A stretch of 64,000 nucleotides of DNA from an uncultured Clostridium sp. Lineage in GTDB: Bacteria; Bacillota; Clostridia; Oscillospirales; Acutalibacteraceae. Both the position numbers and the translations under genes were made by a program. The notes below the pieces were generated by a model, which did no database searches, was not told the origin of the DNA, and saw nothing but the letters and a program-made list of their open reading frames with translations. Every line of letters begins with the position of its first letter. Position 1 is the stretch's first letter. The stretch covers positions 409 through 64,408 of the forward strand of contig CAYUXK010000004.1 in NCBI GenBank assembly GCA_964448835.1. The letters run 5' to 3'. Shown here piece by piece: positions 51,852-54,290 of this stretch.

Positions 51852-54290
51852 TTAAGGCTCATAACTGAAGGTGAAGCAATGTGAACGGATATCACAATTC
51901 ATTATCGAAGCGCGGAAAGCGTTGCCGCGCATGGTTTTGTTGCCGACGCGAATGGTATTCACATACCCGGGTGTTGACCCCGAGGGTGAAGCGTTGGTAA
52001 GTATTTCAAGCCATTCGGCAGGATTGTCGGAGAGCACTATGGAGCTGTCATACGCAAGAATTCTTCTCTTTAATTCATCGGCTGAAATTGATGGCGGCGT
52101 ATTAATGGAGACGACTTCGGGGCTGCTCACTCCTCCCGCCAGATACGGATATTTATTGCTTCCCCAAACACTTTCAGCGCTTGCCGTTTTGCCCGCGGCG
52201 CTCGCAAAGTAGCAGGTAAAAGCCGCAGAGCCGTTATAACAGACATATTTGGGGGAGGGGGTATCGCCGGGCAGGGTGATGCCCAGGTAGCTTAACGCGG
52301 CGTAATATACATTGGTGTCAAGATAATCATATGTAGAATTATAAGCATGACGGTCTGAGGCAACTTTAAAATTATAGTATTTTGCATATGTGTAGACCGC
52401 GCATATCTGCGCCTTGAGCGCCTCATAAGGAGCACTCGCGCCGATTTCGCGGACGGTAGTGCGGCAGAGGTACTCAACAAGCTCAATCGGAACGCCCCCG
52501 TATGTGACGGTTGCGGGCGGATTAGTATCTGTTTCAAGAGATGTGCCGGGATAATAGTGCTTAATAATCTGCTCGTAGGTCTTACCGCTGTTTGCCATCG
52601 CCTTTGCGCCCTCCTGGCTCATGCCGACGCCGTGACCGAAGCCGTAAGTTGTAAAGGTAAAGGTGCCGCTCACGGGCTTACCCGACGAGGTGGTGCCTTT
52701 TTCTGTGACTTTAACCGTGGTGGGCTTGGTAGTTGCCGGCTTAGTCGTGACCGGCTTTGCCGATGTCGGCTTCAAAATTAAGGGCCACTTTAACGAGGCT
52801 GCCGTTGTTGAAATCGCGGAGGTTACAGCCTGCTTCGTGGTGGTCGCCACCGATTTTTTGGTTGTTGCCGCTGATTTTGTGGTTGTTATTGACGATTTTG
52901 TGGTTGAGGCGGCAGTTTGCCGCGGCGTTACCGTGGTGTTAACGGGGGAGGATTCATTCTTCTGCGGGCCGACGCCCTGCATAACCGCGGTCATTACTGT
53001 ACGCGGCGCGGTGGTTATTTCAAGTGAGGACAGCGCCGAGCTTGCCGGGATTGCAATCATATCCGGGCTCTCAAGCATACTGCCGCCGTAGAGCGGGCTG
53101 TAATAATTAAGGTTCGCTTCCGCTTCAACCGCCAAATCGGCGGCCATGGGCGGCTCATTATATGAGGAATTCAGCGAATCCGCGGGAGAATCATCCGAAA
53201 GGTAATAGGCGATACCTACGCACGCGGCAATAGCGGCAAATAGGCACGCTATAATCACAACAAGACCGCGCACGGGTATGCGCTTAACGAGCGGAACGCT
53301 CACCTTTGGCGTGCTTTTCTCCGGGTTCACAAGCCCCTCGGGAGTGGCGGTGAATTCATCGAGCATATTGAGCAGCTTACCTATGGCGGCAAGCACAAGC
53401 GCCTTGGGGTCATCTCCCGGCTCGGAATAAACCTTAACCACACGGGCACGCATGGAGTTCGCGATGCTCACCACGGTGTAGGTGCTCGAGTCCTCTTCAT
53501 CGGTGCAGATATCCGAAACGGCGATGCCGACATCGGCGTGCGTATTCTCTTTTGCGGCTTTAGCAGAAACCGCTATGTAACTGTTGATATTCTCCTCGCC
53601 GTCAGGCGGCGGGGGCGAAACGTCAACAACAAAAACCTTATCAAAGCCATCCGAAAGGCGCAGACACTTTTGAACCAGCGCGGCGCAGCCGACATTTGAC
53701 AGGGCAATGTAAGAGCCGTTATCGGCAAGTGAGTCAACGGTTTGCTTAACCGACTGCTCAATAGCGGAGCGGGCAGTGATTCTTTTTGAAATCGCCGAAA
53801 GCTCGCCGAGGAAGGGCGACAGCTCACTCACGAGCATATAATCAAGCCTCGCGCAGTCGAGCGGCAGCATAATAATGCAGCGCGCGCCTTTTTTGAAAGC
53901 GAAGCCGGAATACAGACCGTCGGAGGAAATGAACACGCGCGCCTTTTCGGGCATAGCCACCTGCAAATCATATTCGCGCTTTGAGGGGAAGTCAATGCCC
54001 TCAACGGCATCGGCAACAACGCGGCTCTTGACCGCGCGAAGCGAGAGCGTTTTCATGAGCGTGAGCTTGAGTGCCGTGAATTGCCCGGGCTCGGCTGCGA
54101 TAATTGCTGTGTGAACGCTTTTAAGTTGGGAATTAAGGCATTCAATGAGCTCCTTCTGGCTGTTGAAGTCAGCGGAAAGCTGGGCATCCGAAAAATAATC
54201 AGATACCACATCACCTATTTGCTCCCTAGCCCTGCGGACTCCTGATGAGCCCTTGGTTGCAAGGGTCAATAAGCAAACCTTTGAAGCCAC
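51852..54290 (-). CDS. Fusion protein: degenerate CinA-like N-terminus, TM helix, Ser/Thr-rich stalk, circularly permuted SpoIID/LytB domain
   Basis: N-terminus aligns by eye with the neighbouring CinA (KKGARCIIMLP vs KKGGKCVIMLP); GFGHGVGMSQEGA...HYYPG precedes EYL..REI..ALKAQ..YTYA. Confidence 0.75.
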   Translation of the reverse strand: MASKVCLLTLATKGSSGVRRAREQIGDVVSDYFSDAQLSADFNSQKELIECLNSQLKSVHTAIIAAEPGQFTALKLTLMKTLSLRAVKSRVVADAVEGIDFPSKREYDLQVAMPEKARVFISSDGLYSGFAFKKGARCIIMLPLDCARLDYMLVSELSPFLGELSAISKRITARSAIEQSVKQTVDSLADNGSYIALSNVGCAALVQKCLRLSDGFDKVFVVDVSPPPPDGEENINSYIAVSAKAAKENTHADVGIAVSDICTDEEDSSTYTVVSIANSMRARVVKVYSEPGDDPKALVLAAIGKLLNMLDEFTATPEGLVNPEKSTPKVSVPLVKRIPVRGLVVIIACLFAAIAACVGIAYYLSDDSPADSLNSSYNEPPMAADLAVEAEANLNYYSPLYGGSMLESPDMIAIPASSALSSLEITTAPRTVMTAVMQGVGPQKNESSPVNTTVTPRQTAASTTKSSITTTKSAATTKKSVATTTKQAVTSAISTTAASLKWPLILKPTSAKPVTTKPATTKPTTVKVTEKGTTSSGKPVSGTFTFTTYGFGHGVGMSQEGAKAMANSGKTYEQIIKHYYPGTSLETDTNPPATVTYGGVPIELVEYLCRTTVREIGASAPYEALKAQICAVYTYAKYYNFKVASDRHAYNSTYDYLDTNVYYAALSYLGITLPGDTPSPKYVCYNGSAAFTCYFASAAGKTASAESVWGSNKYPYLAGGVSSPEVVSINTPPSISADELKRRILAYDSSIVLSDNPAEWLEILTNASPSGSTPGYVNTIRVGNKTMRGNAFRASIMNCDIRSHCFTFSYEP

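What the first reader, a model, noticed from the sequence alone, without database searches (positions are those of the whole stretch)
51852..52660. SpoIID/LytB domain is circularly permuted
Seen: the motif that normally ends SpoIID (GFGHGVGMSQEGAKAM...YEQIIKHYYPGT, ~52540-52645) comes first. It is followed by the motif that normally starts it (LVEYLCRTTVREIG..APYEALKAQ..VYTYA), then YFASAAGKT...VWG..YPYL, and the protein ends at IRSHCFTF, where the GHG segment would usually follow. The Glu equivalent to the catalytic VxxE is retained (codon 52446-52448). Inference: a permuted but possibly active lytic transglycosylase that standard HMMs may score as two partial hits.
Basis: partly seen in the sequence, partly recalled or inferred. 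Interest (0 to 1): 0.72.

Follow-up and report, generated by a model that had tools for sequence, protein, structure and literature searches.

The report
Circularly permuted SpoIID cell-wall enzyme domain
The last 270 residues of this 812-residue membrane protein are a real, conserved and probably active SpoIID-type cell-wall glycan cutter whose usual tail piece has moved to the front; the same rearrangement has arisen independently in other bacteria, so it is a neat case of protein evolution rather than a new kind of system.

Summary
Observation confirmed. The gene at 51852..54290 (-) encodes an 812-aa protein. It has a dead CinA-like cytoplasmic domain, one transmembrane helix, a 177-aa Thr/Ser-rich linker and a C-terminal SpoIID/LytB domain. 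Segment A (GHGVGMSQ...HYYPGT, aa 541-586) matches C. difficile SpoIID residues 306-350. It precedes segment B (aa 602-794), which matches residues 88-291. E615 aligns with catalytic E101 and is invariant in the family.

Re-permuting the sequence in silico turns two TIGR02669 partial hits (104.7 bits) into one end-to-end hit (118.9 bits, 6-269/270). AlphaFold gives one compact domain (pLDDT 93, pTM 0.88), and its best PDB matches are SpoIID structures.

The A-B order is conserved in 316 of 336 retrieved relatives. It occurs in 22 of 24 genomes of the genus and 10 of 61 genera of Acutalibacteraceae. The gene sits in a conserved nifS-thiI-cinA-sortase-sortase operon.

Positional orthologues with the canonical B-A order exist in the same operon. 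The gene tree rejects a single switch (AU p 3e-7).

Actinomycete SpoIID/LytB proteins are permuted at the same hairpin, in every one of about 21 genomes where both pieces were found, and this origin is independent. I found no published description. The finding is a new variant of a known kind, of moderate interest.

The parts
51852..54290 (-). Whole gene: 812-aa bitopic membrane protein, last gene of the nifS-thiI-cinA-sortase-sortase operon
   Evidence: ORF list and translation; operon genes by Pfam; the same gene order in relatives
53301..54290 (-). N-terminal cytoplasmic domain (aa 1-330): divergent, probably inactive CinA paralogue that lacks the KH domain
   Evidence: BLASTP against the window's own CinA, E 2e-10. 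hhalign probability 96.8%, E 2.4e-10, 247 columns. AlphaFold pLDDT 86.6; Foldseek top hits are CinA 4ct8, 3kbq and 6mr3. No Pfam hit. The AESCTGG motif of the window's own CinA aligns with LSNVGCA.
53202..53264 (-). Single transmembrane helix (aa 343-363), N-in/C-out by charge distribution
   Evidence: This is the only hydrophobic peak (Kyte-Doolittle 2.97, 19-residue window). K/R-rich before it (KVSVPLVKRIPVR), acidic after it (SDDSPADS).
52671..53201 (-). Extracellular low-complexity linker (aa 364-540), rich in Thr, Ser, Ala, Pro and Lys
   Evidence: Composition T 18%, S 14%, A 13%, P 9%, K 8%. Unaligned and variable in length among relatives.
52533..52670 (-). Segment A (aa 541-586): beta strand, GHGVGMSQxGA helix and YxxIIxHYYPGT. 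This is the piece that ends a canonical SpoIID domain.
   Evidence: Aligns with SpoIID 5txu 306-350 / 4rwr 270-319 and TIGR02669 positions 219-269. G550, G552, H553, G556, S558, Q559 and G561 are invariant in the family (A1 positions 21, 23, 24, 27, 29, 30, 32). pLDDT 90-99.
52629..52637 (-). GHG motif (G552-H553-G554)
   Evidence: Translation check; H553 and both flanking Gly are conserved (G552/H553 invariant, G554 nearly invariant) in alignment A1
52509..52532 (-). New junction loop (aa 587-594, TDTNPPAT) joining the old C-terminus to the old N-terminus
   Evidence: Lies between the two HMM stretches. Modelled as a short loop between strands E55-58 and E65-68 with pLDDT about 98. It resembles the C-terminal tail plus the start of strand beta-1 of B-A orthologues.
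51855..52508 (-). Segment B (aa 595-812): catalytic-Glu helix, EALKAQ..YTY, FASAAGKT, YPYL and the beta-rich lobe, ending in strand RSHCFTFSYEP at the protein's C-terminus
   Evidence: Aligns with SpoIID 5txu 88-291 and TIGR02669 positions 6-~218. The domain end lies within 3 residues of the protein end in 197 of 236 relatives.
52446..52448 (-). Codon of Glu615, equivalent to catalytic E101 (C. difficile) and E88 (B. subtilis) of SpoIID
   Evidence: Alignment to 5txu; translation; invariant in 37 diverse members; role of E101/E88 from PMC6221140 and PMC6635528

Best explanation
The C-terminal 270 residues form a genuine circular permutant of the SpoIID/LytB lytic-transglycosylase fold. The canonical chain is cut in the loop of the last beta-hairpin, between strand '..RSxxF.i..' and strand '.i.i.G.GHG'. 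The old C-terminus (HYYPGTxL) is joined to the old N-terminus (P.TV.YGG) by an 8-residue loop. All active-site signatures are kept: Glu615, EALKAQ, SxxGKT, YPYL and GHGxGMSQxGA.

The protein is anchored N-in/C-out by one transmembrane helix. The long Thr/Ser-rich linker places the enzyme domain in the wall. There it most likely cleaves glycan strands as SpoIID does, with Glu615 as the catalytic acid.

Shown: the permuted order; its conservation under selection; the fold prediction; the positional orthology with canonical-order proteins; and more than one order switch in the gene tree.

Inferred: enzymatic activity and substrate; the topology; and the origin by tandem duplication of the domain (B-A-B-A or A-B-A-B) followed by loss of the outer pieces. 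That route is easy here because the domain is C-terminal and follows a deletion-tolerant linker.
For: Order and homology:
- Query 541-585 aligns with SpoIID 306-350 and query 602-794 with SpoIID 88-291.
- The re-permuted sequence aligns end to end: TIGR02669 118.9 bits over 6-269/270 against 104.7 bits in two stretches; 5i1t 75.2 against 60.4 bits.

Fold:
- AlphaFold pLDDT 93, pTM 0.88, with a confident junction.
- Foldseek top hits are 5i1t_A (E 1e-7, probability 1.0, 247 columns) and 4rwr.

Conservation:
- 316 of 336 retrieved relatives have the A-B order.
- 132 clusters at 50% identity match at E<=1e-30, nearly all of those listed as one full-length stretch.
- E615 and the GHG/SQ residues are invariant.
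- The C-terminus lies at the same strand in 197 of 236 relatives.

Not an artefact:
- The A-B form is present in 22 of 24 genomes of the genus and 10 of 61 genera of the family.

Orthology with the canonical order:
- L053 (G431) and P0198 (L057) have the same dead-CinA N-domain, the same operon and the B-A order.

Duplication-truncation model:
- The A-to-B junction resembles the B-A tail plus the start of B. P0198 ends ...HYYPGTTLTAND*, while its A-B sister P0201 reads HYYPGTALTKDLNVPSTV....
Against: - No biochemical data exist.
- The conserved Arg of the canonical AARTY motif is Tyr or Phe in this family, in both orders, so substrate handling may differ.
- The Zn site of C. difficile SpoIID is absent, as it also is in B. 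anthracis SpoIID according to PMC6221140.
- The Foldseek TM-score is only 0.54, because a sequential aligner cannot place segment A. A permutation-aware superposition could not be run.
- No A-B-A or B-A-B intermediate was found among 336 proteins and about 100 family genomes.
- No relic of a second A lies downstream of the stop codon.
- The duplication route is therefore inferred, not observed.
Confidence: 0.8

Rival explanations
1. The permuted domain folds like SpoIID but is a non-catalytic peptidoglycan-binding or regulatory module. It could, for example, act as an activator or scaffold for another hydrolase, as is reported for B. subtilis LytB (from my own knowledge; not checked here).
For: The Arg of the AARTY motif is replaced by Tyr or Phe. 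The cytoplasmic domain is a dead enzyme, so loss of catalysis has a precedent within the same protein. No activity data exist.
Against: The catalytic Glu and every other signature motif are invariant or nearly so, across members down to about 37% identity. That pattern is what purifying selection on an active site would produce.
Confidence: 0.15
2. Segments A and B are relics of two different, incomplete SpoIID copies that do not assemble into one domain, so the gene is decaying.
For: The presumed origin involves a tandem duplication. One database protein (P0240) has B without any A.
Against: The A-B unit is intact in 316 relatives with constant spacing and a conserved C-terminus. AlphaFold packs A and B into one domain with pTM 0.88. 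There are no stop codons or frameshifts.
Confidence: 0.03
3. The apparent permutation is an assembly or gene-calling artefact of this metagenome-derived genome.
For: The genome is a 118-contig assembly.
Against: The same order is found on hundreds of independent contigs from NCBI, ENA, JGI and Logan assemblies, and in 22 of 24 genomes of the genus.
Confidence: 0.01

Closest known systems
SpoIID of endospore formers (B. subtilis SpoIID; C. difficile 5I1T/5TXU; B. anthracis 4RWR) and the SpoIID/LytB domain family (TIGR02669, Pfam PF08486)
   Same: The same fold by prediction (Foldseek probability 1.0). The same signature motifs and the catalytic Glu (E615 = E101/E88). Extracytoplasmic location behind a membrane anchor.
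   Different: The chain order is circularly permuted, with the C-terminal GHG...HYYPG piece first. The score is well below the SpoIID equivalog cut-off (TIGR02870 98.6 against 234.75 bits). It has no Zn-binding turn and has Tyr in place of the AARTY Arg. It is fused to a dead CinA domain and a long linker. It sits in a sortase operon, not a sporulation locus. The genome has a separate canonical SpoIID on another contig.
Canonical-order orthologues in the same operon of other Acutalibacteraceae (L053 from genome G431, P0227; P0198 = NCBI MCL2508759.1; the P0236 group)
   Same: The same dead-CinA N-domain (E 1e-22 to 1e-32), transmembrane helix and linker. The same nifS-thiI-cinA-sortase-sortase context. 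The same family-specific residues (RSHCF, Tyr or Phe for Arg).
   Different: The SpoIID domain is in the canonical B-A order. The hairpin loop is intact (for example SY-NGE-FSFTAYGFGHG) and the protein ends at HYYPGTxxx.
Actinomycete SpoIID/LytB-domain proteins (for example the two tandem Nocardioides genes in L052)
   Same: Also permuted, with the cut in the same hairpin: they start ..I.GHGxGHGxGMSQ and end ..LRSxWxTxxVR. In a sample of 31 genomes, every one of about 21 in which both pieces were found has the A-B order.
   Different: An independent origin. In the domain tree they are separated from the window's family by two branches with 98% support, and this genome's own canonical SpoIID lies closer to that family. 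They carry a large beta-rich insert between A and the Glu helix, a signal peptide instead of the CinA-TM module, and a different genomic context.
Other naturally permuted cell-wall hydrolases: the YaeF/poxvirus G6R and LRAT-like branches of NlpC/P60 (Anantharaman and Aravind 2003, as cited in PMC6403190)
   Same: A peptidoglycan-active catalytic domain whose catalytic elements are swapped in sequence order by circular permutation.
   Different: An unrelated fold and chemistry (a Cys peptidase). There the permutation defines deep families; no switching among close orthologues is reported.

Membership tests
SpoIID/LytB domain (TIGR02669 / PF08486) | HMM score above the curated cut-off | tested here: met
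   TIGR02669 115.2 bits against a cut-off of 83.3, summed over two stretches. PF08486 24.4 bits against 23.
SpoIID/LytB domain (TIGR02669 / PF08486) | Colinear order of the domain: Glu helix, then SxxGxT/PYL lobe, then C-terminal GHGxGMSQxGA...YY | tested here: not met
   The order is GHG piece first, then the Glu helix and lobe. Colinearity is restored only after in-silico re-permutation.
SpoIID/LytB domain (TIGR02669 / PF08486) | Catalytic glutamate (E88 in B. subtilis, E101 in C. difficile) | tested here: met
   E615 aligns with E101 and is invariant in alignment A1.
SpoIID/LytB domain (TIGR02669 / PF08486) | SpoIID three-dimensional fold with segment A completing the cleft | tested here: inconclusive
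   The AlphaFold model is confident, and its only significant PDB hits are SpoIID.
SpoIID/LytB domain (TIGR02669 / PF08486) | Lytic transglycosylase activity on (denuded) glycan strands | not testable with these tools
   This needs an enzyme assay.
Sporulation protein SpoIID proper (TIGR02870 equivalog) | Equivalog score above cut-off; the sporulation SpoIID of the genome | tested here: not met
   98.6 bits against a cut-off of 234.75. A separate canonical 342-aa SpoIID lies on contig 17 (191 bits to TIGR02669, one stretch over 2-269).
C. difficile-type Zn-binding SpoIID | The H134/C140/H145/C146 turn | tested here: not met
   The region is deleted in the alignment to 5txu. The residues are listed in PMC6221140.
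CinA (N-terminal domain only) | Pfam MoCF_biosynth, CinA_KH and CinA models above threshold, and an intact PncC-type active-site motif | tested here: not met
   No Pfam hit at E<=1. Homology is detected only by profile and fold comparison. The KH domain is missing, and the AESCTGG motif of the window's CinA aligns with LSNVGCA. It is a structural homologue, not a functional member.

The most novel reading that the evidence does not exclude
The SpoIID/LytB fold is a natural 'toggle' for circular permutation. The same hairpin has been opened independently in Actinomycetes, in the Acutalibacteraceae operon protein and in at least one further clostridial lineage (P0252). Within the operon family the order has also flipped back: P0198 has the canonical order but is nested among permuted sisters. 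If so, this family offers pairs of close natural orthologues that differ essentially only in chain connectivity.
Probability: 0.55. Interest if true: 0.65.

Novelty: new variant of a known kind. Interest (0 to 1): 0.5.

Why it matters
- Annotation. Pfam sees only a marginal fragment of these proteins. Most of the homologues that carry a source name are called 'hypothetical protein', and split HMM hits hide the fact that the domain is complete. A permuted SpoIID/LytB model, or separate A and B models, would fix annotation for this family and for Actinomycetes.
- Protein evolution. The same operon slot holds both connectivities in related genera. One canonical-order protein is nested among permuted ones. 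This gives natural matched pairs for testing how circular permutation arises (duplication then truncation) and what it costs in stability or activity.
- Cell-wall biology. The permutation frees the N-terminal side of the GHG piece as the tether point. It leaves the C-terminus at the hairpin strand, so the catalytic domain is oriented differently relative to its membrane tether. That may matter for how a tethered glycan cutter reaches the wall.

None of this is a new kind of system.

Tried and rejected
- The word-indexed search with the N-domain (aa 1-340) found only 3 proteins because the domain is too divergent. It gave no extra canonical-order orthologues.
- Literature searches found nothing on SpoIID permutation: 'SpoIID' + 'circular permutation' gave 0 papers, 'SpoIID' + 'permuted' gave 1 irrelevant paper, and 'circularly permuted' + 'lytic transglycosylase' gave nothing on SpoIID. 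Morlot et al. 2010 (PMC2816739) is not held.
- I searched for duplication intermediates (A-B-A, B-A-B) among 336 proteins and about 100 genomes and found none.
- I searched for a relic of segment A downstream of the stop codon with tblastn at E<=100 and found nothing.
The gene is supported only by assemblies held in JGI/NCBI and Logan/ENA (contigs of 30913 and 30906 bp), probably of one sample.
- Model coordinates are not exposed, so no permutation-aware structural superposition or cleft-distance check was possible.
- The assembly-artefact and decaying-relic readings were rejected; see the rival explanations.
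Full report
**The gene.** The finding lies in the 3' third of one ORF, window 51852..54290 on the minus strand, 812 codons with a GTG start 20 nt after the preceding gene. The protein has four parts.
- Residues 1-330 have no Pfam match but are a diverged CinA. BLASTP against the window's own CinA (57178-58410) gives E 2e-10. A profile of 18 family members aligns with it over 247 columns at 96.8% probability, skipping the KH domain. An AlphaFold model (pLDDT 86.6) finds T. thermophilus CinA 4ct8 and the single-domain CinA structures as top PDB neighbours. 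The AESCTGG motif of the window's CinA aligns with LSNVGCA, so this copy is probably not an enzyme.
- Residues 343-363 are the only hydrophobic segment. It has Lys/Arg before it and Asp after it, which predicts N-in/C-out.
- Residues 364-540 are a Thr/Ser/Ala/Pro/Lys-rich linker.
- Residues 541-812 are the SpoIID/LytB domain in question.

**Checking the observation.** phmmer against all PDB sequences returns only SpoIID structures, each as two stretches in swapped order. Query 541-585 aligns with C. difficile SpoIID 306-350, the GHGVGMSQ..YY end of the domain. Query 602-794 aligns with residues 88-291. TIGR02669 likewise gives two stretches, and PF08486 one marginal hit. Glu615 (codon 52446-52448) aligns with E101. 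E101 is the catalytic residue shown by mutagenesis in C. difficile and is equivalent to E88 of B. subtilis (PMC6221140, PMC6635528). The protein stops 18 residues after the last aligned position, at ...IRSHCFTFSYEP. That is the strand which in canonical SpoIID pairs with the strand leading into GHG.

I moved residues 535-590 behind residue 812.
- The re-permuted sequence aligns with TIGR02669 in one stretch over profile positions 6-269 of 270 at 118.9 bits. The native order gives 104.7 bits in two stretches.
- It aligns with 5i1t over residues 64-326 at 75.2 bits, against 60.4.
- The pieces alone score 72.1 bits (A, 61 aa) and 43.7 bits (B).
- AlphaFold2 was run on the native order with an alignment of 37 diverse members. 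It gives a single domain with mean pLDDT 93 and pTM 0.88.
- In the model, segment A (strand 14-20, helices 30-38 and 43-50, strand 55-58) and the new 8-residue junction are at pLDDT 90-99. The C-terminal strand 277-282 is confident.
- Foldseek against the PDB finds 5i1t_A (E 1e-7, probability 1.00, 247 columns, TM 0.54) and 4rwr. Nothing else is significant.
- The modest TM-score is what a sequential aligner gives for a permuted chain. I could not run a permutation-aware superposition because coordinates are not exposed.

**It is a conserved family, not an accident.**
- A search of 5.8 billion proteins with the domain gave 2787 hits. The best 120 are 53-60% identical over 95-100% of the domain, that is, in the same order.
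- An exhaustive HMMER search of 1.84 billion representatives gave 132 clusters at E<=1e-30. Nearly all of the best 150 match the full 283 residues in one stretch.
- I split the query into A and B and located both in every retrieved protein. 316 have A before B, 16 have B before A, and 4 are fragments with B only. None has A-B-A or B-A-B.
- In 197 of 236 full matches the domain ends within 3 residues of the protein's C-terminus.
- Across 37 members down to about 37% identity, the invariant residues are the GHG, G.SQ.G and Glu615 positions plus G700, W760 and G789 (A1 positions 171, 231, 260). EALKAQ, the Thr of SxxGKT, W709 of the VWG motif, L717 of YPYL, and the Ser, Cys and Phe of RSHCF are at least 90% conserved.
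- This pattern indicates selection on an intact active site.

**Who has it.**
- Named records are Acutalibacteraceae, Oscillospiraceae or 'Clostridia bacterium' MAGs. Those whose titles name a source are from goat colon and sheep rectum.
- In whole-genome searches the permuted form is present in 22 of 24 genomes of the window's genus, often with a second, shorter paralogue.
- It is present in 10 of 61 genera of the family.
- No other genome among 400 sampled across the order (179 genera, about 20 of them from the window's own family) matched at E<=1e-25.
- The window's own genome also carries a canonical single-stretch SpoIID (contig 17, 191 bits) and a SleC-like protein next to a putative spore-germination (GerA-type) gene, named from its sequence only. 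It is therefore probably a spore former, and the permuted protein is an extra paralogue.

**Context and orthology.** The gene is the last of six co-oriented genes: cysteine desulfurase (Aminotran_5), ThiI, CinA, sortase, a 611-aa sortase-domain protein, and this gene. The same order is found next to permuted genes in other genera (L054, L055, L012, L014, L023, L029, L058). It is also found next to canonical-order genes: L053 in genome G431 of the same family, and L057, which encodes P0198. Those canonical-order proteins share the dead-CinA N-domain (E 1e-22 to 1e-32). The permutation therefore happened in place, within one orthologous multi-domain protein.

**The junctions.** Comparing the two forms shows the junctions exactly.
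- Canonical: ...RSHCFTVSY-NGE-FSFTAYGFGHG...HYYPGTTLTAND*, with B starting ...IPATIMYNGS.
- Permuted: linker-SGTFTFTTYGFGHG...HYYPGTSLE-TDTNPP-ATVTYGG...RSHCFTFSYEP*.
- The cut is in the hairpin loop.
- The new junction looks like the canonical C-terminal tail fused to the start of B. That is what a tandem duplication followed by loss of the outer pieces would leave.

**More than one switch.**
- A tree of 145 domains, all put in B-A order before alignment, needs 5 order changes.
- A tree of the N-domain alone, which is independent of the permuted region, needs 3. It places the canonical-order P0198 inside a 99%-supported clade of permuted proteins.
- A careful IQ-TREE analysis of both regions concatenated (59 proteins, 604 columns) makes P0198 sister to permuted P0201 (100/99). 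Both sit in a 100/100 clade with permuted P0189 and P0168. No bootstrap tree has a single change.
- The AU test rejects permuted proteins as one side of a branch (delta lnL 131, p 2.9e-7).
- The A, B and N segments of P0198 each find permuted proteins as their best hits.
- The A segment of P0198 shares a five-residue insertion (G.S.G...W) with permuted P0201 and P0189.
- Of the 119 closest relatives of P0198 listed from the 5.8-billion-protein set, all 68 not already retrieved were located as A-B, and every best alignment covers only about 80% of the query, i.e. the B part.

The most economical reading is a back-permutation in the P0198 lineage. Independent forward permutations are the alternative. 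There is a caveat. P0198 comes from what is probably one sample. It is held in JGI/NCBI and in Logan/ENA on contigs of 30913 and 30906 bp, which I take to be two separate assemblies.

**How unusual is a permuted SpoIID?** Earlier notes of this scan reported permuted SpoIID domains in Actinobacteria and elsewhere, and I tested this.
- The two adjacent Nocardioides genes in L052 begin, after a signal peptide, with I.GHGxGHGxGMSQ...YYPGT and end ...LRSxWxTxxVR. That is the same cut site.
- Because the two genes are tandem, the HMM even reads B of the first gene plus A of the second, across the stop codon, as one canonical domain.
- In a sample of 31 genomes of that class, every one of about 21 genomes with both pieces has the C-terminal profile piece upstream of the N-terminal piece.
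- In a domain tree the actinobacterial proteins are separated from the Acutalibacteraceae family by two 98%-supported branches, and this genome's own canonical SpoIID lies closer to that family than they do. The origins are therefore independent.
- A further permuted protein, P0252, sits inside a different canonical-order clostridial clade.

The permuted connectivity is thus widespread and recurrent. I found no paper that describes it.

**Mechanism.** The protein is most likely a membrane-tethered glycan-strand cleaving enzyme that works like SpoIID, with E615 as the catalytic acid. It is encoded with two sortases, so it is probably part of a wall-remodelling or surface-assembly module. The cytoplasmic dead-CinA domain is a candidate regulatory or docking module. 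Activity, substrate (denuded or intact strands) and partners are inferred. In both orders, the family replaces the Arg of AARTY with Tyr or Phe and lacks the C. difficile Zn turn. A non-catalytic binding role therefore keeps some probability.

**Verdict.** The observation and the interpretation are both supported. This is a new variant of a known enzyme family and is of moderate interest. Its chief value is as an annotation fix and as a natural system for studying circular permutation.

Noticed in passing
window 54311-60798 (-): A conserved six-gene operon: cysteine desulfurase, ThiI, CinA, sortase (324 aa), a sortase-domain protein (611 aa) and the CinA-like/SpoIID fusion. The same order occurs in several genera of the family. 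No sortase substrate was looked for.
   Followed up: partly
window 53301-54290 (-): The N-terminal domain is a diverged CinA copy without the KH domain and with the AESCTGG motif of the window's CinA lost. An intact cinA lies two genes upstream, which suggests a local duplication followed by fusion.
   Followed up: partly
window ~51615-51755 (-): A small ORF (MEDLQPVIDVLKQAITFIKDSGLLEKAIAAIKEYLPKIIELVSKLG, 46 aa) lies just downstream of the gene. A TTGACT...TATATT promoter-like sequence precedes it. It is not a relic of segment A.
   Followed up: no
L052 (Nocardioides contig JBAWHI010000251.1), two adjacent ORFs of 416 and 397 aa: Two tandem permuted SpoIID/LytB genes. The TIGR02669 model reads B of the first gene plus A of the second, across the TGA stop, as one canonical domain (175 bits). 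This shows how tandem copies interconvert the two orders.
   Followed up: partly
P0240 (365 aa, database protein): A canonical SpoIID beta-rich N-subdomain and Glu helix joined to a B segment that looks identical by eye to that of the permuted family member P0138, with no A (GHG) segment at all. It is either a chimeric assembly or a recombinant.
   Followed up: no
own genome contig 13, about 22867-23268 (-) (L004/L005): A 454-aa SleC-like protein. It has a SpoIID-like N-terminal part matching profile positions 6-106 and 239-265 with the middle missing, followed by repeats that look like peptidoglycan-binding repeats (by eye). It lies next to a putative GerA-type germination gene, also named by eye, which suggests the organism sporulates.
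   Followed up: no
P0280, P0307, P0309, P0323, P0328, P0330; P0295, P0299, P0333; P0319: The permuted domain also occurs without the CinA-like module. It is found in proteins that carry Peptidase_M23 (PF01551), in proteins with fibronectin type III (PF00041), and with a dockerin (PF00404) after an N-terminal A-B domain.
   Followed up: no
L030 4301-5557 and 5605-6822 (+): In one Oscillospiraceae MAG the gene is split into two ORFs: the dead-CinA part, and a 406-aa protein with a more divergent permuted domain.
   Followed up: no
L058 10485-13149 (+): Downstream of the permuted gene P0201 lie a MurL-type epimerase gene and a Mur ligase gene. This is another link between the locus and peptidoglycan metabolism in that genome.
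   Followed up: no
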